From the NCBI GenBank assembly GCA_026391255.1, contig JAPLDU010000085.1:11376-75375 (forward strand): a DNA stretch of 64,000 nucleotides, in the 5' to 3' direction. Positions 16,349 through 28,277 of this stretch are shown here, in pieces. Source of the stretch: Bacteroidia bacterium (GTDB lineage Bacteria; Bacteroidota; Bacteroidia; Bacteroidales; JAPLDU01). Within the stretch, counting starts at the first letter, position 1; each line of letters opens with the position of its first letter. Position numbers and translations under genes: made by a program. Under the pieces are notes generated by a model. The model searched no databases. It was not told the DNA's origin and was given only the letters and a program-made list of their open reading frames with translations.

Positions 16349-19336
16349 CTAATAAGTCTTTATTACCTCAGTGAAAAATGAACCTGTTGTTCCGGTAACT
16401 TTTACAAAATAAACTCCGTTTTCAAAGCCGGTAAGATTGATAAGAATTTCTTTCAGTCCTGCCGGCTTTGTTTCATATATCATCTGCCCGAAAATGTCTG
16501 TGACAATAATGCTTTCCACATTGTCCGGATTGTTTTCAATTTCAAAATGAATAATACCATTTGTCGGGTTTGGAAATACCTTGTATTTCAATCCTGTAAA
16601 TTCCGCTATGGAATTGGTATCAATCATTGTTGAAAACGACCAGCCTGTGCTCCATCCGCTGGCAAGGACAGTATCGGATGTCGCTTTTACTCTCCAGTAA
16701 TAAGTATGGAAATAATTCAATGAACTGATCAGGTATTGTGATACAGGAGTAGTCTGAACGACTAAATTGCTGGTAAAATCAAAATCGGTGGCATACTCCA
16801 CCTGGTAGCCCGTAGCCAGTGCTACATCATTCCAATCAAGCAAAATATTGGTAACCGGGATATTTATCGAAAAATCAGCAGGGCTGAGTAATACCGGCAC
16901 GTTCAGGTCATTCTCTGTTGTGAACGACCACACCAGGCTCCAGTCACTGTTGATCATGCCAGTGTTCACAGCTTTCACCCTCCAGTAATAGATACTGTTG
17001 ATACTAAGATTGGAAATAGTTACCTGCGAAGTTACAGGTGTCAGTGTGGTCAGGTTGAACATGAAATTATCAAAAGTTGAATATTCAACAACGTAATATG
17101 TGGCAAAACTTACATCTTCCCAGTCAAGAGTAGTGGCATTAATTGACATATCAACACTCAGGTCAGCCGGACTTGTCAGGATGGGAGTTGCAAGTTGCTG
17201 TAATTCGGTGGTGAAATAGTAAGTATCTGACCATAGGGACGCAAGCAAGCCATCAAACGACCTGACCTTCCAGTAATAGGTTTTATGATAATCCAATCCT
17301 GTTAAAGTTGCAAAGGTATCGGTGGTATATGTTTCAGAAGGATAATCGAAATCGGGATTGTCAGCAATCTGGTAAAAATAACCTGATACACCCGGGACTG
17401 CAGTCCACACCAAAGTAGCATTTACTGACACACTGATCTCGGCAAGCAAGGGATGAACCAGTGATGGTGCCACCGGTAAGTTCGGGGGAACGGAACCAGT
17501 ACTGAACCATCTTTCATCCCACAAGCTTGTGTCAACCTGGTTGATGATCTTCACACGCCAGAAGTAAATTGTATTTGATTGGAGCAATCCTGTGTGATAC
17601 TCAGTATCAGGGTTGCCCGGGCTGGCGTTGATATACTGGACAGATTGCTCCACCAGCGCCGGGGAATTGAATGCATTTGAAACATCCATTTGCATGGTAT
17701 ACATCATGGCGCCAGGATGCGATAACCAGTCGAGGATCACACCTGTATCCGGTTGATTCAATGCACCATCGGCAGGACTGAGCAATCCGATCTGGTCCCA
17801 GGTATAAAACAATGAAGGAGCGCTCCAGACGGATGTATCCGTACTGTTCATTGCCCTTACACGCCAGTAGTAAGCTTTTCCGAAAAAAAGATTATTTATA
17901 TAATATTTATTAGTATCAATAGAATTAACCTGGATAAATGCTGATGTGGTAAAACTGGCATTGGTATCAAGCTGGAGAGAATAAAAGCTGATTCCGGGCT
18001 GTGACTGCCAGATGAGGGTAGTCCCAGTATATGTCGTAGCCTGGTAAGTCGGGGATAAAAGAATTACATAGCCGTATGTCTGGAAATATCTTGTTTCCGA
18101 CCACAGGGAAGTATCTGCCTGATTCCTTGCCCTCACATGCCAGTAATAGGTTTTACCAAAGTAAAGATTATTAAAAGTCATTTTTGTATCATCGTTATCG
18201 TCCATCGCATTGATATAGATGGTATATCCGCTGATCAATGCAGGTGAGTTGAAACTGTTGACAGTATCAAGCTGGTAATCGTAGAAATCAACTCCGGCAT
18301 GAGCCAGCCAGTCAGTTACTGTTGATGTATATTCAAGAGAATTGTTTTGTGGCAGATTAAGACTGACAGTTGAAAATGTATTGAATATTCTGGTGATTCC
18401 CCACGAAGAAGTATCCACCTGGTTAATTGCCCTTACTCTCCAGAAATACTGGCTTCCGAAATACAGATTGTCAACAAATGCTTCGGTATCAGTAAGACTG
18501 TCGGCAAACATAATAAAAGCTTTCAAACCTGTTTTAAAGGCCGGGGAATTAAAATTTGATGTTGTATCCAGTTGGTATTGATAATATTGTATCCCGTCAA
18601 AAGCAAGCCAGTCAATAGTAACTCCTGTAAACACGGTGGCATTTTGAGCCGGTGATGACAGTTCCAGCTGGTTAAGAGTTGAGAAACTCCAGGTGGTCCA
18701 TTGGCTCGCATCAACATTATTCCTTGCCCTGACCCTCCAGTAATAGGTTTTCCCAAAAAACAGGCCGGAGATTTCCTGTTCGGTATCATAAAACATGTCA
18801 TATTCAGAAAAAGCTGTAGTAAACCCGCTGATCAGAACCGGCGAATTAAAGCTGCTGACAGTATCAATCTGATAGTCGTAATAGAAAACACCGGGGTGAG
18901 CATTCCAGTCAAGCTTTACTTTGGTATAATTCTGACTGTTCTGCGCAGGTGAAACCAGTGCAACATAATCGCGGGTAATAAAATCCCTGATGGCTGTCCA
19001 TGGGGAATATGCTCCGCTGCCATAGGCACGCAAACGCCAGTAATAGGTTTTCCCGAAATACAGATCGCTTATATATGCCCATGCATCACCATTTCCTGTA
19101 GCATCAATATAATTGATAATGGTATCAAACAAAACGACTGAAGAAAATCCGGGTACGGTATCTAACTGAAGTTCATAAAAAGTGGATGCCACTACCGGGT
19201 CCCAGGCAAAATGAACTACATTCCATGTGGTAATACCGGAATCCGGTTCAAGGATCACCGGGGTATTCCAGGCAAATGTGGTAATACCGAACAAGGAAAA
19301 CAAAAAGAGCAGTTCCATCCGTTTTTTGAAGTTCAT
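16349..19336 (-). CDS. T9SS-secreted protein with about 9 fibronectin type III-like repeats
   Basis: Repeated L.SP....W..Y.YQ.D....F.S...YYWRVRA; C-terminal VFPNPT...GVYFVKV type A CTD. Confidence 0.88.
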   Translation of the reverse strand: MNFKKRMELLFLFSLFGITTFAWNTPVILEPDSGITTWNVVHFAWDPVVASTFYELQLDTVPGFSSVVLFDTIINYIDATGNGDAWAYISDLYFGKTYYWRLRAYGSGAYSPWTAIRDFITRDYVALVSPAQNSQNYTKVKLDWNAHPGVFYYDYQIDTVSSFNSPVLISGFTTAFSEYDMFYDTEQEISGLFFGKTYYWRVRARNNVDASQWTTWSFSTLNQLELSSPAQNATVFTGVTIDWLAFDGIQYYQYQLDTTSNFNSPAFKTGLKAFIMFADSLTDTEAFVDNLYFGSQYFWRVRAINQVDTSSWGITRIFNTFSTVSLNLPQNNSLEYTSTVTDWLAHAGVDFYDYQLDTVNSFNSPALISGYTIYINAMDDNDDTKMTFNNLYFGKTYYWHVRARNQADTSLWSETRYFQTYGYVILLSPTYQATTYTGTTLIWQSQPGISFYSLQLDTNASFTTSAFIQVNSIDTNKYYINNLFFGKAYYWRVRAMNSTDTSVWSAPSLFYTWDQIGLLSPADGALNQPDTGVILDWLSHPGAMMYTMQMDVSNAFNSPALVEQSVQYINASPGNPDTEYHTGLLQSNTIYFWRVKIINQVDTSLWDERWFSTGSVPPNLPVAPSLVHPLLAEISVSVNATLVWTAVPGVSGYFYQIADNPDFDYPSETYTTDTFATLTGLDYHKTYYWKVRSFDGLLASLWSDTYYFTTELQQLATPILTSPADLSVDMSINATTLDWEDVSFATYYVVEYSTFDNFMFNLTTLTPVTSQVTISNLSINSIYYWRVKAVNTGMINSDWSLVWSFTTENDLNVPVLLSPADFSINIPVTNILLDWNDVALATGYQVEYATDFDFTSNLVVQTTPVSQYLISSLNYFHTYYWRVKATSDTVLASGWSTGWSFSTMIDTNSIAEFTGLKYKVFPNPTNGIIHFEIENNPDNVESIIVTDIFGQMIYETKPAGLKEILINLTGFENGVYFVKVTGTTGSFFTEVIKTY

Positions 19337-19394
19337 TATCATAGCAGATGATATTTATTGCAAAAATACGAATTCTTTCTTAACTTCTAAATCC

Positions 19395-19580
19395 TAACCC
19401 GGCCGAGCCAGTACCAAACAAGAAATCACAAATCTCAAAATACAAATAACAAATAAATATTAATCAACAAAATGACAAATTAAAAGAAGTTTATTTCGTA
19501 TTTGATATTTTGATATTGTTAATTATTTGTTTTTTGTGATTTGTTTTTTGGATTTTTTTGCCAAAACGCATTAAGATTCA
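19395..19580. repeat. Family C dispersed AT-rich hairpin repeat
   Basis: Near-identical to 44512-44697; partial inverted copy at 36730-36832. Confidence 0.8.
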
Positions 19581-19660
19581 AGAAAAAAGGCACTAATTGA
19601 TGATCAGGTAAACAATAGATTGTGAGAAAAGTTACTACTTTTGCCGGATAAATAACTCAG

Positions 19661-20326
19661 ATGCTGGCAAAAGACCTGATATCAGAAAATATTCCTGTTT
19701 TAAAACCATCCGACACCGGAGTCCATGCGCTTAGCCTGATGGATGTATTCAGGGTTTCGCATCTTCCAATTGTTAATGACAAAGAGTTCCTGGGTTTAAT
19801 ATCTGATACTGATATTGCAGAATTCAACAATGCCGGCGAAACCATCGGCAATCATAAATTATCTCTGTTAAGACCTTATGTGATGCACGACCAGCATATC
19901 TACGAGGTGATTGAAATATGTTCCCGCCTGAGATTGACGGTTGTACCTGTTCTTAACGGAAAAAATGAATTCATGGGTGTCATTACCCAGAACGGTCTGA
20001 TGTACCAGGTTGCCAACCTGATGGCAGTCAGTCATAAAGGTGGGATCATTGTCCTTGAACTCAATATGAATGATTACTCACTGACAGAAATAGCCAACAT
20101 TGTCGAGAGCAATGATGCCAAAATACTGAGCCTGTATATCAAATCACCTGCCGATTCAACAAAAATTGAGATTACGATCAAAACCAACAGAATTGATATG
20201 TCAGCACTGGTTCAGACGTTTGAAAGATATAACTACAATATTAAATACATGTTTCTTCATAACAGTGAGATCGATGTAATGTACAACGACCGGCTGGAGG
20301 AGTTTCTCAGGTACCTGGAGGTTTAA
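19661..20326 (+). CDS. CBS-domain protein (AcuB-like)
   Basis: Two CBS motifs plus ACT-like C-terminus; TACTTTTG promoter box upstream. Confidence 0.9.
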   Translation: MLAKDLISENIPVLKPSDTGVHALSLMDVFRVSHLPIVNDKEFLGLISDTDIAEFNNAGETIGNHKLSLLRPYVMHDQHIYEVIEICSRLRLTVVPVLNGKNEFMGVITQNGLMYQVANLMAVSHKGGIIVLELNMNDYSLTEIANIVESNDAKILSLYIKSPADSTKIEITIKTNRIDMSALVQTFERYNYNIKYMFLHNSEIDVMYNDRLEEFLRYLEV

Positions 20327-20345
20327 ATGAACAATTGAATTAGTT

Positions 20346-20486
20346 AAAGTCTGCCTTTAATGTTCAGAATTATGAATTCAGAATATCAATTAACGATTTT
20401 AGATTTTTGATGTGACTGATAATCTTAAATCTAAAATCGTTAATCCTTGTTCTTAAATCAATCCGATGACTTTAAAGAAAGACATT
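20346..20486. mobile_element. MITE-like family B copy (no micro-insertion)
   Basis: AAAGTCTGCCTTTAA ... TTTAAAGAAAGACAT; core AAATCGTTAATCCTTGTTC. Confidence 0.65.
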
Positions 20487-20558
20487 GATTAACGTAACGC
20501 CAGGATTATTTTGAAAGTTCTGTTTGTTTCAAAATTATCAACCGTTATTTCTATTTTT

Positions 20559-20711
20559 GTAAGTACTCAGGATTAGATTGTAGGCTATTAGGCTGTAAGC
20601 TATAAGAATACGTATCATGAAACAGAACAAATGGTGAAAACAGGAATATTAATTGAATTCATTTTTTCTAAAAGCCTGACAGTCTATAATCTAAACAACC
20701 TGAATAGTTAC
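20559..20711. mobile_element. MITE-like element with GTAA(C/G)TA(T/C)TCAGG terminal inverted repeats
   Basis: GTAAGTACTCAGG ... CCTGAATAGTTAC (11/13) plus inner inverted arms. Confidence 0.65.
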
Positions 20712-20784
20712 AATTAATTTTGTGTCAAAGTTATGAGTTTTTCAAATCACTTTTAAAATATCGGTTACTAATTTTCAAAATGGG

Positions 20785-21305
20785 TACTAAGGCCCCGGGA
20801 CTTTAGTAGTAGCGAATTGACACTACTATTCATGGTTCTTCCGGATAATGCTTAGGTATTGATAAAAAAGACTCTTTCAGAAAATGCGTTTTTTAGTCCC
20901 GTCAGGGACGACATATCGGTAGAAATGTATCTATTTAAATGTCAAGTGCCGTAGGTACGATATATTTTTCAATCATTTCCTTGAAATAACATGAATCTGA
21001 ATTGATTGGATGTACATTACATTTTCAATATTTCGTTCCTGACGGAACTTTAATTTTGATGATGGTCATTGATTTCTACCGATATTATGTCCCTCCGGGA
21101 CAATACTTGTTTGTAAAGTTGTTCAATATTTCGAATACGTCAACTAATAATGAATATTCTTTGGATCACCCCTCTTATTAACTTACTTATTCACCCACGC
21201 ATTTACCGGAAGAACTCTATTTATTTTAGCCAATGGAATCTTTATCAAATTTACGAATGATTTTGTCATAATGTTCACTGCTATTGCTTTTAACACATGT
21301 TAGAA
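20785..21305 (-). repeat. attC-like site 4 (distal), interrupted by a MITE
   Basis: Right arm CTGCTATTGCTTTTAACACATGTTAGAA; degenerate left arm TACTAAG..AGTAGTAGCG; about 130 bp after removing the MITE. Confidence 0.55.
20834..21216. mobile_element. 383-bp MITE with 18-bp TIR, 8-bp TSD and REPIN-like cargo
   Basis: GGTTCTTCCGGATAATGC ... GCATTTACCGGAAGAACT (15/18); flanks CTATTCAT/CTATTTAT; internal GTCCCGTCAGGGAC-type REP doublets. Confidence 0.8.
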
Positions 21306-21337
21306 CCAGTGCCCGAAATATACTTTGACCAACAATT

Positions 21338-21793
21338 TTATAACCATGGCAGTAATACTTTCTTGCAGTATTCTTCCCATTTTTGACCAAATAGTTGTGA
21401 TAATATTTTTTCTTCTTCCGGTGAATATATCCTGGACCCAATATATACTATAATTCCTATAACTGCACCTAACCATGTATTGAAAATAAATCCAACCCAG
21501 GGAAGTACGAGAAGAGCTACTCCAGTATATAATGGATGCTTTATAATTGAATAAGGTCCGTTTGTTATAAGCTCCTTCCTTGGAATCTTTGTCAATATTA
21601 AAACAACAGACCATATCCAGTTTATTATTCCCGGAACAAGAATAATAATTGAAACTACCAGCAGAGACAGATGCGGACCACCAACATTGAAGAAAGAAGG
21701 GAAAAAAACATTTAAGGTTAACCCGATTACTAAAAAAGGCAATGTTAATAATCCGATCTTCTTTCCACTACCTACAAGAATAGACAATTTCAT
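21338..21793 (-). CDS. Isoprenylcysteine carboxyl methyltransferase/PEMT-family membrane protein (cassette 4)
   Basis: LITNGPYSIIKHPLY, EEEKIL...FG..W..Y motif. Confidence 0.88.
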   Translation of the reverse strand: MKLSILVGSGKKIGLLTLPFLVIGLTLNVFFPSFFNVGGPHLSLLVVSIIILVPGIINWIWSVVLILTKIPRKELITNGPYSIIKHPLYTGVALLVLPWVGFIFNTWLGAVIGIIVYIGSRIYSPEEEKILSQLFGQKWEEYCKKVLLPWL

Positions 21794-21832
21794 ATCTTGA
21801 TCTCCTTTATTAAATTCTTAAATGTTCGGTAT

Positions 21833-22016
21833 TCATAACTGCCCGCCGCTTGGCCTCAGTGACGGTTTTTTTATTTATTAGGTAAACATTTACCAGCAGC
21901 TATAAGCAGTATCGGATTGCGTAGAATTTGTTTTTCTCATTTGTTTGACATTTCTGCGTGCTGGAATGCTGAATTGCCTGAAACCACCGCCATTGCTAAT
22001 GAGCGGCTTGTTGGGC
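21833..22016 (-). repeat. attC-like site 3
   Basis: TCATAAC..GCCGCTTGGCCTCAGTGACGGT ... ACCGCCATTGCTAATGAGCGGC..GTTGGGC. Confidence 0.75.
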
Positions 22017-22025
22017 GCCGGAATT

Positions 22026-22187
22026 CTATTGTCCCACAGGTTTCAATCCACTATTTTTAATTCTTAATTCGATATACTTTTGCAATTCTTCAAATGACAT
22101 ATTAATCGTCTCTACACTAATTTTATCTCGTATATCACGCATCATTTTTACTGCGTCAAATGTTTTGTTATTTTTATTCGTCTTCAT
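22026..22187 (-). CDS. 53-aa putative antitoxin partner of the PIN gene (not in ORF track)
   Basis: MKTNKNNKTFDAVKMMRDIRDKISVETINMSFEELQKYIELRIKNSGLKPVGQ; start overlaps the PIN 3' end; stop about 10 nt before site 3. Confidence 0.75.
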   Translation of the reverse strand: MKTNKNNKTFDAVKMMRDIRDKISVETINMSFEELQKYIELRIKNSGLKPVGQ

Positions 22188-22638
22188 AATTTATTAAATC
22201 TTTGGGGCTCCTTATTTCAATCATTGAATATCCAAGCCGTAAATTAATAGAATTATAACTCTTTATTCTGTCAAGATTTACAATATGTTTAAAATTCCAA
22301 CTTACAAGTACATCAACTTTATTAATCGTAGCTAAAGCTATGTGCCTACAATCTTCTAAACATGTTAATCCAACTACTTTCTCTGAAATATATGTATCTG
22401 CAAGTTTCATAGACTCTTCTGTCAATGAAACCCGTTCAAAATTGTTTCTGGAATAATTATATAAAAGATTTCTTACATTAGCTGGTGCATCAATTAATTC
22501 AAGATCAAGAAGATCAGAAACAACAAAAATTATTTCCTTTCTTTCTAAACGTTTAAAAAGTTCTTGGGTAGCTTCTTTGAATTCTTCATCAAAGTACCCG
22601 CCTACTATTGAAGTATCTATGTAAATTCTCTGTTTCAT
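22174..22638 (-). CDS. PIN-domain (VapC-like) toxin (cassette 3)
   Basis: IYIDTS, EL, DCRHIA, LVSWNFKHIVN; own TATTTTTG box at 22643-22650. Confidence 0.9.
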   Translation of the reverse strand: MKQRIYIDTSIVGGYFDEEFKEATQELFKRLERKEIIFVVSDLLDLELIDAPANVRNLLYNYSRNNFERVSLTEESMKLADTYISEKVVGLTCLEDCRHIALATINKVDVLVSWNFKHIVNLDRIKSYNSINLRLGYSMIEIRSPKDLINYEDE

Positions 22639-22698
22639 TTAGCAAAAATACGAAAATATTTATTATTTCAACTGGTCTGCTGTGTTTTTATTGTTTGC

Positions 22699-22829
22699 CC
22701 GCAACGCACACCGCTTGGCCTCAGTAGCGGTTTTGATTTAATGCCAGGAAAATCGAATCCGATTGTGGTTTATTTAATACCATACCCTCTGAATTGCTGA
22801 TAACTATTGGGCTAAATGGTTTGTAATGG
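22699..22829 (-). repeat. attC-like site 2
   Basis: CCGCAAC..ACCGCTTGGCCTCAGTAG ... CTATTGGGCTAAATGGT..GTAATGG; left arm shares CCGCTTGGCCTCAGT with site 3. Confidence 0.7.
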
Positions 22830-22845
22830 CTTGTTTAGGTTTCTA

Positions 22846-23040
22846 TTATTTTAGGATATCGTCAATATCGATATCGGCTTGTTTCAGTATTGCTCTTAAT
22901 GTTCCTTCGGGCATGTCGCCGGAATGATTTGGAACTGTAGTAAATCGATTTGTTTTTGGATTATACCAGATTTCGTGGCTTCCGGCAGCTTGTCTATAAA
23001 ACTCAAATCCGTTGTGCTTCGATAAGTTTTTTCGCAACAT
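22846..23040 (-). CDS. hicA: HicA-family toxin (N-terminus possibly truncated; cassette 2)
   Basis: GFEFYRQAAGSHEIW..TTVPNH.GDMPEGTLRAILKQA. Confidence 0.85.
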   Translation of the reverse strand: MLRKNLSKHNGFEFYRQAAGSHEIWYNPKTNRFTTVPNHSGDMPEGTLRAILKQADIDIDDILK

Positions 23041-23167
23041 CTTTGGCAATTTCAATAGTTTCAGCGATAGTTCTGCCTTGAGCAACGAGACCTTGAACAT
23101 AATCAGAAGTGGCAAGATAAAACCCTTCCGGTAATTTTTCTATATGCAGATTGACAATGTGTTCCAT
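23003..23167 (-). CDS. hicB: Short HicB-family antitoxin (cassette 2)
   Basis: EKLPEGFYLATS..VQGLVAQGRTIAETIEIAKD. Confidence 0.85.
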   Translation of the reverse strand: MEHIVNLHIEKLPEGFYLATSDYVQGLVAQGRTIAETIEIAKDVAKKLIEAQRI

Positions 23168-23224
23168 AATATTTCTTTTTTTGGCAAAATAGTGAAAATA
23201 ATTCAAAATGTTGTTTTTAATGAG

Positions 23225-23357
23225 CCATAACGGTCGAGGCTTGCTATTCGGCGGGGCGAATCGAAGCCGTTTCCTGTCCTAATACATCGAGGCTGGATAT
23301 AAGAACTGTACTGTCCTAAAACCCCACTGCCCCGCTGATAGTATGCCTTTGTTATTC
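23225..23357 (-). repeat. attC-like site 1
   Basis: CCATAAC..AGGCTTGCTATTCGGCGGGGC ... GCCCCGCTGATAGTATGCCT..GTTATTC; begins 12 nt after the upstream gene stop. Confidence 0.8.
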
Positions 23358-23368
23358 ACCGGGCGATT

Positions 23369-24997
23369 TTATTCTTTGATAAGTTTCTTTACTATTATTT
23401 CTTTTTCTGTTGTCCCTTTAATAAAATAAATTCCATTTGCAAGGGCTGAAATGTCTATAGTTGTTTGATTTTCGGCATTGTTTATTGTTTTTATTAATTG
23501 TCCTTGTAAGTTTAAAATTTCTATATCTAATTTTTGCGGATTAATGATCATAACGTTTTCTTTTGCGGGATTTGGATAAATTACTAATGAACCTTCATTG
23601 ACATGAATTTCATTAATCCCTACAAGAGTAGATAATTTTGCTAAGAAAGTATCATAGCTGCCATTATTAATAAGTGTGTTACTGCCGAAGTTGAGCGTGT
23701 AATTGCCAAAGTAACCTGTCAGGTAGATATTGTTGCCTCTATCAGCGCAAACGCCCATGCCATATTCACTGCCCTCGCCAATGCTTTGTGCAAAGAGCGC
23801 ATTACCATTTGCATCATACTCCGCTATGAAAATGTCATTATTGCCAACATTGTTGTTGATAACAGGAATACCTCCAAAGTTAAGATAGGGGCTTGTAAAA
23901 TAACCCGTGACAAAAATATTGCCGCTTAAATCAGTGCAAATGCTTTGGCCAAAATCAGAATTTGTTCCTCCAGGGCTTCTTCCCCATAGTGCATTACCGT
24001 TTGAATCATATTTGGCTACAAAAATGGTAGAACTTGAAAATGGTAAACCAGCCAAAGTATCGCTCCCGAATGCAACTGAAGTGCCAAAGTAGCCTGTCAA
24101 ATAAATATTGCCATTTGCATCGGCAGAAACACTACTACCAATGGATTCCCCGCTTGGGCCTTTTGCCCAAAGATAATTGCCATACGCGTCATATTTAGCT
24201 ATAAATATATTGACCCAACTACCTGACAAAGTATCATTTCCGAAAATGGCAAGGTTTTGAAAACCTCCAGTTATATAAATGTTTCCGCTTATGTCTGTGC
24301 AAATACTTTGTTCTCTACCATTAGCGACCAAACCACTAGCTATCTTTTTAACCAAAATAATATTGCCATTCTTATTATATTTTACTATAAAAGCACCTTG
24401 GCTTAAAGTATATTGATCGAAAATAATACTAGAACTACAAGAAACAAATATATAAACATTGCTCAAAGCATCAGAACAAATTCCCCAGCCGATGCTGCTT
24501 GCACCATTGTGATTGATGCCATTTTTAGCCCATTGTACATTGCCTACGGAGTCATATTTTACTAAAAAAACGTCCTGACTGCCAAAGTTATTTAAAGTGA
24601 TCATATCGAATAAAATGGAAGGACTTTCAAAATATCCCTCTATATATACATTATCATTTGCATCGGTGCAAATTCCGTAAGCATAATCGTAGTTATTACC
24701 GCCCCCACTTTTTGCCCAAAGCACATTTCCGTTCGCATCATATTTTACTACAAAGATGTCAAGTGTTCCTGCATTTTTATTGTTTAAAGTATAACTTCCG
24801 AAAGTAATTGCAGTGCCCTGAAAAGTACCCGTTATATAAACATTCCCTTTTAAATCGGTGCAGGTGGCATTACTGTATTCATTACTTATACTTCCTGTGC
24901 TTTTCGCCCAAAGCCAGTTAGAAGTTTGTGCATTTGTTATATTGCTTAAAAAGCATAAAGAACCAATCAATGTCAAAAGTAAAATTGTCTTTTTCAT
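23369..24997 (-). CDS. T9SS-secreted SBBP-type beta-propeller repeat protein (cassette 1)
   Basis: Repeats ICTD..GNIYITG.F...DIFV.KYD.NGN.LWAK; CTD IYPNPA...GIYFIK. Confidence 0.9.
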   Translation of the reverse strand: MKKTILLLTLIGSLCFLSNITNAQTSNWLWAKSTGSISNEYSNATCTDLKGNVYITGTFQGTAITFGSYTLNNKNAGTLDIFVVKYDANGNVLWAKSGGGNNYDYAYGICTDANDNVYIEGYFESPSILFDMITLNNFGSQDVFLVKYDSVGNVQWAKNGINHNGASSIGWGICSDALSNVYIFVSCSSSIIFDQYTLSQGAFIVKYNKNGNIILVKKIASGLVANGREQSICTDISGNIYITGGFQNLAIFGNDTLSGSWVNIFIAKYDAYGNYLWAKGPSGESIGSSVSADANGNIYLTGYFGTSVAFGSDTLAGLPFSSSTIFVAKYDSNGNALWGRSPGGTNSDFGQSICTDLSGNIFVTGYFTSPYLNFGGIPVINNNVGNNDIFIAEYDANGNALFAQSIGEGSEYGMGVCADRGNNIYLTGYFGNYTLNFGSNTLINNGSYDTFLAKLSTLVGINEIHVNEGSLVIYPNPAKENVMIINPQKLDIEILNLQGQLIKTINNAENQTTIDISALANGIYFIKGTTEKEIIVKKLIKE

Positions 24998-25049
24998 AAT
25001 GTCTTTTTTAATTTCTGTTTGTGTTTCGGCTATTTTTTTTTCGCCTTAT

Positions 25050-25075
25050 GCCTAACTATCTTATAGATTCACCTT
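25050..25075 (-). other. attI-like array entry core (GTTAGGC on minus strand, no partner arm)
   Basis: GCCTAAC at 25050-25056 is a perfect GTTRRRY on the coding strand, 53 nt upstream of cassette 1 ATG. Confidence 0.55.
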
Positions 25076-25241
25076 CCCCCCATTTCATTTCCAATATGGA
25101 TGAGTAAGATAATTTTTATTCCTTTATATTTTCAAAACCTTTAATATTCATTCTCCTCAATATTTGCTTTTTCTATGTCTTTGCTTTGTCAATTACCTAT
25201 TATATTTCTGATAAGTCCCGGTCATCCTGAATTTGGTAAAA

Positions 25242-25249
25242 CAAAAATA
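25242..25249 (-). promoter_or_regulatory. Candidate Bacteroidota -7 promoter box facing the cassette array (Pc-like)
   Basis: TATTTTTG matches TAnnTTTG; the -33 box is weak. Confidence 0.35.
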
Positions 25250-25352
25250 CAAAATATTTTTGAGGATAATTAAATCTTTTTCTTCTATTATTATTCTGAC
25301 TTATTATATCTAAAATCTGACTGTTCGAGTATTCGTCCGCCGGAGGTGGAGT

Positions 25353-28277
25353 TCAAAAGCGCAGTTCCTTCAGGGCAGCAACTCTTGCAACCGTTTCAAT
25401 GACTATGGCAGCGAGGGCTGCGCCATAATCGAGATCAATATTTTCCATGGTGTCTTTTGTATCGTGATAACCTGATCGGTTAATATCATAGTTTTCCATA
25501 AAAAGCACGACAGGCATTCCGGCATCGGAAAAAATCTGGCCATCGGTATTGTAAAGGCTACTGCTGTGATTATATTTTGTACGTACTTCGCCTGTCAACG
25601 GGAGATGCCTGGCGGGTTCAGGAATGGTGATCCCGTCGCTGCTTCGCACGCCGCGCTTGCAATGATTTCTTTCAGGAAGGGAATTCCATTCATCTGTCCC
25701 GGAATTCCAGGCCTGGTTTGCCATATGTGCCTGGTACGACAGGAAAACGGATTGTGCACTATTACCCGGAGATATCTGAAAAATATCTTTGTCTTTTTCA
25801 TTGTTGTGTGCAATCATATCAGAAACAAAAACCCCGGTGATAGTCATTCCTGACAGATCAATTATACCGTTATTCTCAATATGGAGTTTTAAATCTTTAT
25901 TTTTTACGGCTTCGCAAAAATGCCGTGCGCCAAGGCAATCGGAAGGAAATTCCTCACCGGTAAGATGTAACAGCCATACATCGCGTTCGAGAAGATTGTT
26001 TTTAGCCAGGTCAAGAAATACAGAACATGCAAGCAGCAGAGCGGAAGTGACAGAATGATTATCATCCGCGCCTGCGGCCGACAAGCGGGCGCCCGAACCG
26101 CCGCGTTCCTTCTCATAAATATCCTCCATGTATGCCGTATCATAGTGATCGGCCATCACAACTGCCTCTCCGCGGTTTTTCCCGGGGATAACCACCAGGA
26201 TATCTCTCTCCGTTTCATGTTCATTCTGATTATTTTTCCAGCCGGTAAACTGGTTAAAGCTGAAATCAGTCTGCCAGTTAAAAGGCAGTTCGCCGCAATA
26301 TGCCATGCCTTTCATTCCGGCTTTTTCAATTTCCGCGCGATGACATGAAATGAGAAAATCGCCGAGTTGCAAAAGGTCTCTTTTATGGTGCTTCAGTTGA
26401 TGCAGGGTAGGTTCGTCATCAACAAAATCGGCATTGTCTTTATTGATAAAATTTCCATGGGATAATGTGAAAATATCATTCCAGAATGACTCTTCAAAAG
26501 CACGTGTGGCGGTATATCGATAAGTAATGCCCTCCGGAGGTTTTTCATTATATTCCTGTTCAATAATTCTTTCCAGTTCAACTTTCATTTCCTGTCCGGC
26601 TGCCGGATCATCTGATAATCCGGGCAAGGAAGACAACCATTGTTCCAAAGTTTCATTCTTCCCAATGTGAAGAAGGCGCCGTGCAAAACTTCCGGGAATC
26701 CTGTTTTCTGCAAAAAGTTTCTTCTGGGATAACAGGTTAATAATATTCATGGTGGTCTGATGTGCGAAGCTGTCATGAGAACTCTTGAAATTTTTCAGGG
26801 CTGATAAATAAAGAGGTCTTTGCATTATCCGCGGCCATAATTCAATTACCTGTGATGCTGAGGCATTTTCACACTGGTATGCGGAAATATAACCATGTAA
26901 AGCATCAGGCAGAATCCTGATTTCATCAGTTGTTTTCTTAACATAAGCAACCAATGGCCTGTGCCAGTATATCTCATGATTGTCAATGCGCATCGGAGGG
27001 AAGAAAAACCGGTAACCGAATAAACCTCCCTGTTTAATTTCATTTTCAGCATTTAAAATTTTTGCGGGAGATGCATTCGGACCGTCAAGTAACAGGGAAT
27101 AATCTTTTCTCCAGAGCTGGCAATTTCTTGCCATGGGTTTACCATATAATCCCATAGTGTCAAGGTCCGTACTGAAAAGGGTTTCGGCAATTTTAACCAG
27201 ACGATGCGGATAGGTTAATTCATCCTCGTTTTTGTGAATCTTTTGCCACCGGTGAGTCCGATGATAGGTGTCAAGAATAAGTTCATGACGAACATCGGAT
27301 GCTTTCACAGAGGGATGAGGTTCATAAATCCAGCCTGATTGCGGCACCCGGATTCCTTCATGGCCGCTGTGCCTGGTTACCATTCTCTGCATCGGGATCT
27401 GAGTTGCAAAAGGCAAGCCGGCCTGAAGTTCCCGGTAATTGTTCATGCCCCGGAAAACAAGACTGCCGGGAAAAGGGAGCAGAACTATCTTTCCATCAAG
27501 ATATTTTTTCCTGATCAGATCAGGCAGCAGACTGAACGGACGAAAGCTCAGTATGAATTTTACATTTTCAAAAGAATCATTGTCATTAATCAGAAATGAT
27601 TTTGCCCGGGTCGGGATTAAATCTGTATTTTTTGTTTCCAGAATCCTGAAGCCAATTCCCGATAACTGTGATCTGTCAGAGACTTTCACATGATGCGTCT
27701 CTTCAAGGATTTGTGAGATGAATGTAATGAAATTCCTTTCCCTGATTTCTTCTGAAGCTTCGGCCATAAAGCATTTCCAGAAAACCTGTTCAGGATCGTC
27801 AATGCTGTTGCCAAAGAAGGTCCAACGTACACGACCCTTGTCATCCTGAGTGCGCGACAGCATCATCGGGAGAAAGACAATGTATTGTTCGTTTTTCAGC
27901 TTTCCTGCGTTTTTCGCAAGATCATCAGGCCAATAAGGATTATTGGTAAGATTTTGGTTGCCATGGCCGCCAATATGATATTCGGGCAATCCTTTCCCAA
28001 GTTTAATCAGATGTTGCATTACCTGGGTCCCGATATTTTCAATGCCTGGTTTCAATTCCAGCTCTTCTTCCATTTCCGTGATATTCCAGCCATTCAGATT
28101 ATCATCAGAAAAAATATCGTGATCGGTAAAAACATGATCATTGCAATCTATAACCGGAGAAGGCATAAATTCAGAATATGCGGGCAACCTGAATTTAATT
28201 CCCTTTGCATCATGAGTGATTTTATTTCGTAGTTCTTTCCAGCCTTGTATCTGGGTTTTATCAACCGGTGAATTCAT
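25353..28277 (-). CDS. Large protein with C-terminal M28-family peptidase domain and unassigned N-terminal ~600 aa
   Basis: VVMADHYDT, GADDNHS, LTGEEFP, SDMIAH, YHDTKDT zinc-peptidase motifs. Confidence 0.85.
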   Translation of the reverse strand: MNSPVDKTQIQGWKELRNKITHDAKGIKFRLPAYSEFMPSPVIDCNDHVFTDHDIFSDDNLNGWNITEMEEELELKPGIENIGTQVMQHLIKLGKGLPEYHIGGHGNQNLTNNPYWPDDLAKNAGKLKNEQYIVFLPMMLSRTQDDKGRVRWTFFGNSIDDPEQVFWKCFMAEASEEIRERNFITFISQILEETHHVKVSDRSQLSGIGFRILETKNTDLIPTRAKSFLINDNDSFENVKFILSFRPFSLLPDLIRKKYLDGKIVLLPFPGSLVFRGMNNYRELQAGLPFATQIPMQRMVTRHSGHEGIRVPQSGWIYEPHPSVKASDVRHELILDTYHRTHRWQKIHKNEDELTYPHRLVKIAETLFSTDLDTMGLYGKPMARNCQLWRKDYSLLLDGPNASPAKILNAENEIKQGGLFGYRFFFPPMRIDNHEIYWHRPLVAYVKKTTDEIRILPDALHGYISAYQCENASASQVIELWPRIMQRPLYLSALKNFKSSHDSFAHQTTMNIINLLSQKKLFAENRIPGSFARRLLHIGKNETLEQWLSSLPGLSDDPAAGQEMKVELERIIEQEYNEKPPEGITYRYTATRAFEESFWNDIFTLSHGNFINKDNADFVDDEPTLHQLKHHKRDLLQLGDFLISCHRAEIEKAGMKGMAYCGELPFNWQTDFSFNQFTGWKNNQNEHETERDILVVIPGKNRGEAVVMADHYDTAYMEDIYEKERGGSGARLSAAGADDNHSVTSALLLACSVFLDLAKNNLLERDVWLLHLTGEEFPSDCLGARHFCEAVKNKDLKLHIENNGIIDLSGMTITGVFVSDMIAHNNEKDKDIFQISPGNSAQSVFLSYQAHMANQAWNSGTDEWNSLPERNHCKRGVRSSDGITIPEPARHLPLTGEVRTKYNHSSSLYNTDGQIFSDAGMPVVLFMENYDINRSGYHDTKDTMENIDLDYGAALAAIVIETVARVAALKELRF

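What the first reader, a model, noticed from the sequence alone, without database searches (positions are those of the whole stretch)
20785..25075. Integrase-less integron-like cassette array with non-canonical attC-like sites in a Bacteroidota genome
Seen: four co-oriented, visibly AT-richer gene units, each followed within about 10-35 nt of its stop by an AAC...GTT imperfect hairpin (23225-23357, 22699-22829, 21833-22016, 20785-21305), with a lone GTTAGGC at the entry. The bases beside the cores match best between the two ends of the same cassette: hicBA GTTATGGCTC vs GTAATGGCTT; PIN GTTGCGGGC vs GTTGGGCGC; T9SS GTTAGGCA vs GTTATTCA; methyltransferase GTTATGAA vs GTTAGAA. Established: this is the footprint of integron cassettes recombining at G/TT via circular intermediates, and self-promoted TA cassettes are typical of such arrays. 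Inference: the sites are long (130-184 bp) with divergent arms, so this may be a Bacteroidota-specific cassette system served in trans by a tyrosine recombinase that standard attC models miss. I cannot confirm novelty without a search.
Basis: partly seen in the sequence, partly recalled or inferred. Interest (0 to 1): 0.9.

Follow-up and report, generated by a model that had tools for sequence, protein, structure and literature searches.

The report
Decaying integron cassette array, no integrase
This stretch is a small, probably inactive array of integron-type gene cassettes in a genome that has no integron integrase; it is a known kind of element, notable only because its recombination sites belong to an unusual lineage-specific family.

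Summary
Three of the four reported sites are real (A 23222-23360, B 22697-22830, C 21830-22018, minus strand). The fourth (20785-21305) is mostly a 383-nt MITE-like repeat with at least 10 genomic copies. Sites B and C belong to a ~130-nt repeat superfamily (types I-III) with about 17 copies in this genome. Seven of these form a second array on contig C15. All 17 lie just downstream of a co-oriented ORF. The left end of a cassette matches the 5' box of its own site better than other combinations do (permutation p=0.004), and two single cassettes show the same. That is the footprint of circular cassettes inserted at the GTT core. The genome (97.5% complete) has no IntI, but 8 of 401 same-order genomes do, with canonical attCs beside them, some 163-164 nt long. 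Two proxy "standard attC" covariance models recovered held-out attCs but none of the sites here, so "non-canonical" remains possible; IntegronFinder itself could not be run. Half the sites have decayed arms or cores. Verdict: an integrase-less cassette array (CALIN-like), a new member of a known kind. I found no evidence for a separate Bacteroidota recombinase system.

The parts
25050..25056 (-). Lone canonical R'-type heptamer at the entry of the array; left end of the first cassette. No attI or 5' partner identified upstream.
   Evidence: Read. Match to the 5' box of site A is only 4 letters, the background level.
23369..24997 (-). Cassette 1 gene: secreted beta-propeller protein with a T9SS C-terminal sorting domain (542 aa).
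   Evidence: Por_Secre_tail 6.2e-16 and SBBP 2.3e-13; TIGR04183 1e-14.
23222..23360 (-). Site A: attC-like imperfect hairpin with AAC and GTT cores. Its sequence has no other full copy in the genome.
   Evidence: Inverted-repeat score 12 against 6.5 +/- 1.3 in shuffles, 1 of 300 as good; sequence; one short partial match only.
23003..23206 (-). Small ORF upstream of hicA, presumed HicB-like antitoxin (not confirmed by a family model).
   Evidence: No Pfam or NCBIfam family at 0.01; weak DUF1902 match, E 0.073.
22846..23115 (-). hicA toxin gene. The ORF as listed probably starts too early.
   Evidence: PF07927 HicA_toxin 1.7e-17, residues 33-82.
22697..22830 (-). Site B: type-II attC-like element, decayed. 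It has TAC instead of AAC at the 5' core and two mismatches in the 8-bp inner stem. Its 5' box matches the left end of the hicBA cassette.
   Evidence: R1 133.9 bits; alignment A3; inverted-repeat z 2.0; cassette-end score 7.
22174..22638 (-). PIN-like protein (154 aa); weak family support.
   Evidence: PIN_3 E 0.013, 16.7 bits against a cut-off of 27, aligned over the full profile.
22026..22187 (-). 53-aa ORF overlapping the end of the PIN-like gene; function unknown, possibly its partner.
   Evidence: no family.
21830..22018 (-). Site C: composite. A whole type-I element (21885-22018) is followed by an extra type-II 3' arm and the GTT core (21830-21867). It probably holds the remains of two sites after loss of a cassette (inference).
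   Evidence: nhmmer hits at C42 33246-33391 and 33205-33242; direct repeat D10 with site B; inner inverted-repeat z 3.8, full-length z 1.1.
21338..21793 (-). Last cassette gene: membrane methyltransferase of the ICMT/PEMT type (151 aa).
   Evidence: PEMT 9.7e-07 and ICMT 1.7e-06; NF040696 6.2e-11, below its cut-off.
21288..21305 (-). 18-nt palindrome holding an AAC and a GTT core 4 nt apart, 32 nt after the methyltransferase stop. It may be a stump of a fourth site, or chance.
   Evidence: Weak R2 and R3 hits of 8.3 and 6.9 bits.
20833..21215 (.). MITE-like repeat with 23-nt terminal inverted repeats.
   Evidence: Inverted repeat I11, 20835-20857 / 21193-21215, 83%; matches of 85-90% over 160-383 nt on C96 (two), C72, C156, C82, C28, C137, C94, C50 and C60.
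25353..28277 (-). Upstream flank: 974-aa M28-family peptidase (core gene, higher GC).
   Evidence: In 80 of 80 related metagenome loci no array follows it.
19661..20326 (+). Downstream flank: CBS-domain protein, convergent with the array.

Best explanation
The region is a short array of integron-type gene cassettes with no integrase beside it or anywhere in the assembled genome (a CALIN-like element). Each unit is one gene or gene pair plus a ~130-190 nt attC-like site at its 3' end. The units were once inserted as circles by recombination at the GTT core, so each cassette's left end still pairs with the 5' box of its own site. The sites belong to a lineage-specific superfamily of three related sequence types, which also forms a longer array on contig C15 and several single cassettes. 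With no IntI present, the sites are decaying: cores are mutated, arms mismatched, one site is composite, and MITEs have inserted. The array is now probably a fixed accessory island. Shown: the anatomy, the repeat family, its position and orientation, the cassette-end footprint, the absence of IntI here and its presence in the same order. Inferred: that an IntI made the array, and that it is now inactive.
For: (1) Sites B and C are homologous to about 15 other elements in the genome. Seven are on C15, spaced by single small co-oriented genes, and several end in canonical R'-type heptamers. (2) 17 of 17 elements lie 0-175 nt downstream of an ORF on the same strand. (3) Cassette-end footprint. 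The 3' flank of site n was compared with the reverse complement of the 5' flank of site n+1. Scores were 4,7,5,4,4,7,7,8,4 for 9 adjacent pairs, against a mean of 4.32 for 102 other combinations, of which only 5 reach 7. Same-site pairs average 3.9. Permutation p=0.004; Fisher p=0.002. (4) Two of seven single cassettes carry, 23 nt before their start codon, a left end matching their own 5' box. On C136 this is 16 of 18 letters, with 0 of 200 random regions as good. On C108 it is 11 of 12, with 1 of 200 as good. (5) The inner stems differ in sequence between types I, II, III and site A but stay complementary. Terminal inverted repeats beat shuffles (at most 5 of 300 as good) in 8 of 18 rows tested. 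(6) Cassette content is typical. HicA and a weak PIN-type match suggest toxin-antitoxin pairs. On C15, 8 of 17 array ORFs scanned have no Pfam family at the thresholds used. The stretch has low GC. (7) IntI above the curated cut-off occurs in 8 of 401 sampled same-order genomes. Arrays beside them have attCs of 49-164 nt. (8) Published surveys report integrons in Bacteroidota and describe CALINs as common, also in MAGs (passages read).
Against: No IntI in a 97.5% complete genome: the best TIGR02249 match is 73 bits against a cut-off of 265. No attI was identified. Two proxy canonical attC models found none of sites A-C, nor any of the seven C15 sites, at E<=10. Single-strand folding energies are ordinary: z from -2.2 to +0.6 for 8 sites, and only 1 of 8 reached by 8 or fewer of 200 shuffles. 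AAC...GTT-anchored hairpins are not enriched genome-wide over control anchors. Of the 10 array sites, 2 lack AAC and 3 lack GTT at the expected place (my reading). 10 of 18 rows show no clear terminal inverted repeat. Loop sequences are conserved within a type (79% column identity in type II), which would also suit an RNA element. An exact arm pattern found no true relative in 185,579 species genomes. BLAST found only 3'-arm remnants in 2 of 400 same-order genomes. No close relative exists for a synteny test.
Confidence: 0.7

Rival explanations
1. The ~130-nt elements are a family of intergenic 3'-end elements (REP-like repeats, terminators or stabilisers, or a structured RNA). They spread or are kept downstream of genes, and the AT-rich genes are an ordinary island. 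On this view the resemblance to attC is superficial.
For: 17 of 17 lie downstream of co-oriented ORFs, and about 7 are singles scattered between ordinary genes. Loop sequences are conserved within types. There is no integrase. Canonical attC proxies fail. Fold energies are ordinary. The genome is full of other MITE-like repeats, some inside these very spacers.
Against: Such an element's own two ends should pair best. Here the 5' box pairs best with the end of the preceding site, one gene upstream. At two singles it pairs with a sequence 23 nt before the gene start. Several boundaries carry canonical R'-type heptamers. No Rfam family matches.
Confidence: 0.15
2. This is a separate cassette system of Bacteroidota. 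Its sites are used by a tyrosine or other recombinase that is not an IntI and is encoded elsewhere.
For: No IntI in the genome. The sites are missed by two canonical proxy models. The 3' spacer between inner stem and GTT core is 5-9 nt in the type-II sites, and the box sequences are unusual. 14 other tyrosine-recombinase matches exist in the genome.
Against: No recombinase adjoins the arrays on C42 or C15. The one on C136 is 5.3 kb from the cassette, sits beside a tRNA gene and has the usual arm-binding/SAM-like/catalytic layout of integrative elements. True IntI genes with attC arrays exist in the same order. The crossover position and the hairpin layout are those of integrons.
Confidence: 0.08
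3. Chance: unrelated hairpins that happen to carry AAC and GTT.
For: AAC...GTT hairpins of similar score are abundant and not enriched.
Against: Homologous copies with E-values down to 1e-29, their strict placement and the cassette-end statistics.
Confidence: 0.02

Closest known systems
CALIN (cluster of attC sites lacking an integron-integrase), as defined for IntegronFinder
   Same: At least 2 cassette-bounding sites less than 4 kb apart, co-oriented small genes, no intI, and toxin-antitoxin and unknown-function cassettes. CALINs are described as degraded integrons and as common in MAGs (passages read).
   Different: Membership is defined by hits of the IntegronFinder attC covariance model, which I could not run; my two proxies do not hit. 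Cores are partly mutated and one site is composite.
Sedentary chromosomal integron arrays with one conserved attC family (for example the Vibrio repeats; recalled, not examined here)
   Same: Sites of about 120-130 nt conserved over their whole length within an array, with many unknown-function and toxin-antitoxin cassettes.
   Different: There is no integrase. The arrays are small (3 and 7 sites), three sequence types are interleaved, and many singles are scattered through the genome.
Integrons of same-order genomes (G327, G318, G077, G024, G126, G246, G207)
   Same: Same bacterial order. The G327:C60 array has long attCs (71, 163 and 164 nt) after small co-oriented genes, with a 2-3 nt 5' spacer and a longer 3' spacer.
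   Different: Those sites keep canonical 7-nt boxes at both ends and lie within 2 kb of an IntI or IntI-like ORF. No sequence similarity to types I-III.
REP/BIME-like or MITE intergenic repeats
   Same: Multi-copy, intergenic, imperfect palindromes.
   Different: Strict co-orientation with the upstream gene, and pairing of ends across a gene rather than within the element.

Membership tests
Complete integron | Integron integrase (IntI) gene next to the array | tested here: not met
   TIGR02249 against the whole genome: best 73 bits against a cut-off of 265. None of the 14 matches is on C42 or C15.
Complete integron | attI site and Pc promoter at the array entry | tested here: inconclusive
   Only a lone R'-type heptamer at 25050-25056. 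The sigma-70 scan is not informative: 19 sites found against 21.5 expected.
CALIN | Two or more attC sites called by the IntegronFinder covariance model | not testable with these tools
   The model is not available. Proxies R2 and R3 gave no hit on sites A-C or on the C15 sites at E<=10. The proxies found held-out attCs at E from 8e-10 to 0.76, and R2 missed one of five.
CALIN | No intI nearby; sites clustered within a few kb | tested here: met
   the three sites lie less than 1 kb apart.
attC site | Inverse core boxes ending in AAC and beginning with GTT (consensus RYYYAAC / GTTRRRY, recalled) | tested here: inconclusive
   In the window, A and C have both cores and B has TAC at the 5' box. 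Over the 10 array sites, AAC is present in 8 and GTT in 7 (my reading).
attC site | Imperfect hairpin formed by the two arms, with bulges | tested here: met
   At most 5 of 300 shuffles as good in 8 of 18 rows, including A and inner C; B is marginal. The whole-site fold energy is not exceptional.
attC site | Sits at the 3' end of a co-oriented ORF | tested here: met
   17 of 17.
attC site | R' downstream of the crossover belongs to the next cassette (cassette ends pair) | tested here: met
   Adjacent pairs against others: permutation p=0.004. Two of seven singles show it.
attC site | Recombined by an IntI as folded single strand | not testable with these tools
   Needs an assay.
MITE (for 20833-21215) | Short, non-coding, terminal inverted repeats, many copies | tested here: met
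   23-nt terminal inverted repeats at 83%; at least 10 copies. Target-site duplication not examined.
HicAB toxin-antitoxin | HicA toxin domain plus adjacent HicB antitoxin | tested here: inconclusive
   HicA met, 1.7e-17. The partner ORF has no family above threshold.

The most novel reading that the evidence does not exclude
Types I-III would be the recombination sites of a Bacteroidota cassette system that standard attC models cannot see. They would be served either by a divergent IntI not yet linked to them or by a different recombinase. If so, cassette arrays and single-cassette insertions (some carrying T9SS cargo proteins made within the phylum) would be much commoner in Bacteroidota than integron surveys report.
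Probability: 0.12. Interest if true: 0.75.

Novelty: new member of a known kind. Interest (0 to 1): 0.3.

Why it matters
Integron surveys of complete genomes found almost nothing in Bacteroidetes (passage read). Here one MAG holds two arrays and several single cassettes, with its own site family and no integrase. Two canonical-type models miss all of them. If the real IntegronFinder model misses them too, cassette arrays in this phylum are under-counted. The cassettes encode T9SS-sorted proteins, which points to cassette formation inside Bacteroidota rather than import from Proteobacteria. Otherwise this is a degraded CALIN of the ordinary kind.

Tried and rejected
Rfam (evalue mode) on 19000-27000 and on four loci: no relevant family.

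RNAalifold on the mixed MAFFT alignment gave no structure because types I and II were out of register. I therefore did no formal pair count across types; the compensatory changes are read from the sequences.

Model R1 (type II only) proved too specific. It found its 4 seeds, one weak new hit (C120) and site C at E 2.45.

A generic scan for AAC...GTT-anchored arm pairing over the whole genome showed no enrichment over two control anchor pairs. At score 10 or more the counts were 5822 against 15815 and 7597. I dropped it as a detector.

Synteny. The M28 protein has no match at 1e-20 in 40 same-order genomes; this genome is alone in its family. The 80 metagenome loci kept (best 73-74% identity) share no neighbour with the window, and the two closest carry no array after the gene.

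An exact arm pattern over all species genomes gave 26 hits. The 14 I read are coding or chance matches, and the other 12 are of the same taxa and lengths.

Contigs of 4 runs from 2 studies cover the stretch without differences and break at the repeats. One joint (22012 to 22711, skipping 698 nt) was seen in 2 runs. Its sides are only 25-27 nt and the letters between are unknown. It could be a variant without the PIN cassette or another copy of the repeat family, so it is not used as evidence.

The protein atlas gave no taxonomic help.

I considered that a conserved ~25-nt motif at the entries of the C15 and C136 arrays, also seen on the cassette side of intI in three same-order genomes, marks an integron platform. 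I rejected this as a general rule, because in other genomes it lies upstream of unrelated genes.

Supplements were not consulted; the IntegronFinder 2.0 supplementary tables may list Bacteroidota CALINs that I could not see.

Full report
THE OBSERVATION. The region 20400-25200 has GC 0.30-0.41, against 0.39-0.50 on both sides. It holds four gene units, all on the minus strand:
- A 542-aa beta-propeller protein with a T9SS sorting tail.
- HicA (PF07927, 1.7e-17) with a 67-aa ORF upstream.
- A 154-aa protein with a weak full-length PIN_3 match (E 0.013) plus an overlapping 53-aa ORF.
- A 151-aa ICMT/PEMT-type methyltransferase.
The flanks are an M28 peptidase gene (upstream, same strand) and a convergent CBS-domain gene.

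They begin 9-16 nt after the stop codons. A canonical R'-type heptamer stands alone at 25050-25056, ahead of the first gene.

THE FOURTH SITE IS SOMETHING ELSE. Coordinates 20833-21215 are bounded by 23-nt terminal inverted repeats. They match 85-90% over 160-383 nt on at least ten other contigs. This is a MITE-like repeat. All that remains of a possible fourth site is an 18-nt palindrome at 21288-21305.

ARE THE THREE SITES MORE THAN CHANCE? Judged as hairpins alone, hardly.
- Single-strand DNA folds of eight sites give z-scores from -2.2 to +0.6.
- A genome-wide scan for arm pairing anchored on AAC...GTT finds no excess over two control anchor pairs.

The real signal is that B and C are members of a repeat family. 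nhmmer and blastn find about 17 related elements of ~130 nt in the genome, in three related types:
- Window sites B (type II) and C (type I plus an extra type-II 3' arm).
- Seven on contig C15.
- Singles on C108 (two), C67, C50, C120, C136 and C87.
Site A has the same layout but an unrelated sequence.

All 17 family members lie 0-175 nt downstream of an ORF on the same strand. On C15 the seven sites alternate with single small co-oriented genes between about 7.4 and 15.4 kb, and several end in canonical R'-type heptamers. At the thresholds used, 8 of the 17 C15 ORFs scanned have no Pfam family. The others include T9SS-tail, TPR, acyltransferase and DUF proteins.

Terminal inverted repeats beat shuffles (at most 5 of 300 as good) in 8 of 18 rows, including A and the inner part of C. 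B is marginal and eight are not distinguishable from shuffles. The inner stems have different sequences in types I, II, III and in A but remain complementary. I read this from the sequences. A formal count was not possible because MAFFT put the types out of register.

THE DISCRIMINATING TEST. In an integron array the part of a site downstream of the crossover belongs to the next cassette. The 5' box of a site should therefore pair best with the end of the preceding site, not with its own 3' end. I compared 18-nt flanks by coordinates.
- Nine adjacent pairs score 4,7,5,4,4,7,7,8,4.
- The 102 non-adjacent combinations average 4.32, and only 5 reach 7.
- The ten same-site pairs average 3.9.
- Permutation p=0.004; Fisher p=0.002 for scores of 7 or more.
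In the window the hicBA cassette scores 7 and the PIN cassette 5. The T9SS and methyltransferase cassettes are at background.

For the seven singles I searched 320 nt around the start of the upstream gene for the complement of the site's 5' box.
- C136: a match of 16 of 18 letters, 23 nt before the start codon (0 of 200 random regions as good).
- C108: 11 of 12 letters at the same distance (1 of 200).
- The other five show nothing.
This footprint is expected from circular cassettes inserted at the GTT core. It is not expected from a REP-like repeat or an RNA element.

THE INTEGRASE QUESTION. The genome is 97.5% complete in 161 contigs. It has no IntI: the best TIGR02249 score is 73 bits against a cut-off of 265, and none of the 14 tyrosine-recombinase matches is on C42 or C15. 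The one on C136 lies 5.3 kb from the cassette, next to a tRNA gene, and has the domain layout of integrative-element integrases.

In the same order, 8 of 401 sampled genomes have IntI above the cut-off. Next to them I found canonical attCs:
- Two of class-1 type in G318.
- One in G077.
- One of 49 nt in G327:C86.
- An array in G327:C60 with sites of 71, 163 and 164 nt after small co-oriented genes.
Integrons with long attCs therefore exist in this order. No new recombinase needs to be invoked.

DO STANDARD MODELS SEE THE SITES? IntegronFinder is not available here and Rfam returned no attC match, so I built proxies.
- R2 came from six attCs of a class 1 array and a Diaphorobacter integron. On held-out sites it scored aadA6 1e-13, dfrA17 (133 nt) 0.0023, dfrA14 0.71 and the G327 site 0.85, and it missed dfrA1.
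- R3 was rebuilt from 16 R2 matches, three of them reverse-strand hits, and included same-order sites. On sites not in its seed alignment it scored aadA6 8e-10, a 163-nt G327 site 0.29 and dfrA1 0.44.
Neither model reports sites A, B or C as such. R2's only touch is a 7.1-bit partial alignment of the 5' arm of C, and neither finds any of the seven C15 sites at E<=10. The proxies are weak, so this does not show that IntegronFinder would fail. It does show that the sites lie outside the class-1-like consensus. The boxes are unusual, and the 3' spacer between inner stem and GTT core is 5-9 nt in the type-II sites.

RELATIVES. This genome is the only one of its family in the collection. The nearest M28 homologues in metagenomes (73-74% identity) share no neighbours with the window, so the locus cannot be compared across strains. 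An exact pattern for the shared arms found only coding or chance matches in all species genomes. BLAST with the best-kept type-III site found 3'-arm remnants in 2 of 400 same-order genomes. One follows a T9SS-tail gene and one sits at a contig start. Contigs from four runs of two studies carry the stretch unchanged and break at the repeats. One short-sided joint that would remove the PIN cassette is inconclusive.

INTERPRETATION. The best reading (0.7) is a degraded integron cassette array lacking its integrase, with a lineage-specific attC superfamily. The decay shows in several ways: TAC for AAC in B, missing GTT in three C15 sites, a composite site C, MITE insertions, and half of the arms no longer clearly complementary. 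This fits the loss of the integrase.
- Main rival (0.15): an intergenic repeat or RNA family. It explains the placement and loop conservation but not the cassette-end footprint.

Published work reports integrons in Bacteroidota, describes CALINs as frequent and as degraded integrons, and notes that complete-genome surveys found almost none in Bacteroidetes (passages of PMC9024848, PMC8618304 and PMC9668308 read; I did not read the whole texts). The phylum assignment rests here only on T9SS sorting domains.

VERDICT. This is a new member of a known kind, interest 0.3. The open point that could raise it is whether the standard tool misses this site family.

Noticed in passing
G000 contig C15, about 7.4-15.4 kb (locus L009), minus strand: A second, longer cassette array: seven type I-III sites alternating with small co-oriented genes that mostly have no known family. 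Several sites end in canonical R'-type heptamers. MITE-like repeats sit in some spacers.
   Followed up: yes
G000 C136 29104-30051 (L147 3078-4052) and C108 70536-71250: Single cassettes whose left end, 23 nt before the start codon, is the complement of the 5' box of their own downstream site. These are the best-preserved members of the family.
   Followed up: yes
window 20833-21215: A 383-nt MITE-like repeat with 23-nt terminal inverted repeats and several internal short hairpins; at least 10 copies in the genome.
   Followed up: partly
window 25322-25352, directly after the M28 stop: A 21-31 nt motif repeated about 20 times in the genome at 90-95% identity. It may be a REP-like or terminator element.
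   Followed up: no
G000 C15 15706-15826 and C136 28799-28924; also L027 ~13900, L028 ~14590, G207:C64 117-142: A conserved ~25-nt motif, preceded by a promoter-like box and often followed by a T-run. In this genome it sits at the entry of the C15 array and of the C136 cassette. In three same-order genomes it lies on the cassette side of intI. 112 of 401 same-order genomes gave some match, and roughly two-thirds of the matched rows fall on the motif. Elsewhere it lies upstream of unrelated genes, often a 177-aa ORF. No Rfam family. It may be a small RNA or leader.
   Followed up: partly
window 19267-19800 and 20335-20868: Summed contig depth in four metagenome runs rises to 320-2560 here, against about 10 for the rest. 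These are very abundant repeats flanking the CBS gene. The second is related to the spacer at C15 17805-18210, which has 41 blast hits in the genome.
   Followed up: partly
window 20373-20460: A 39-nt-arm inverted repeat (79% complementary) just after the CBS gene. It gives the best, still weak, R3 scores in the region (9.5-11.4 bits nearby). It is probably a terminator.
   Followed up: no
G000 C15 16535-16972: A spacer holding a G/C-rich palindromic repeat with 182 blast hits in the genome. The genome is rich in such repeats.
   Followed up: no
L013 (G318:C68): The IntI of this same-order genome is 57.8% identical to class 1 IntI1, with two class-1-type attCs beside it on a 3.9-kb contig. This could be horizontal transfer or a mis-binned contig.
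   Followed up: no
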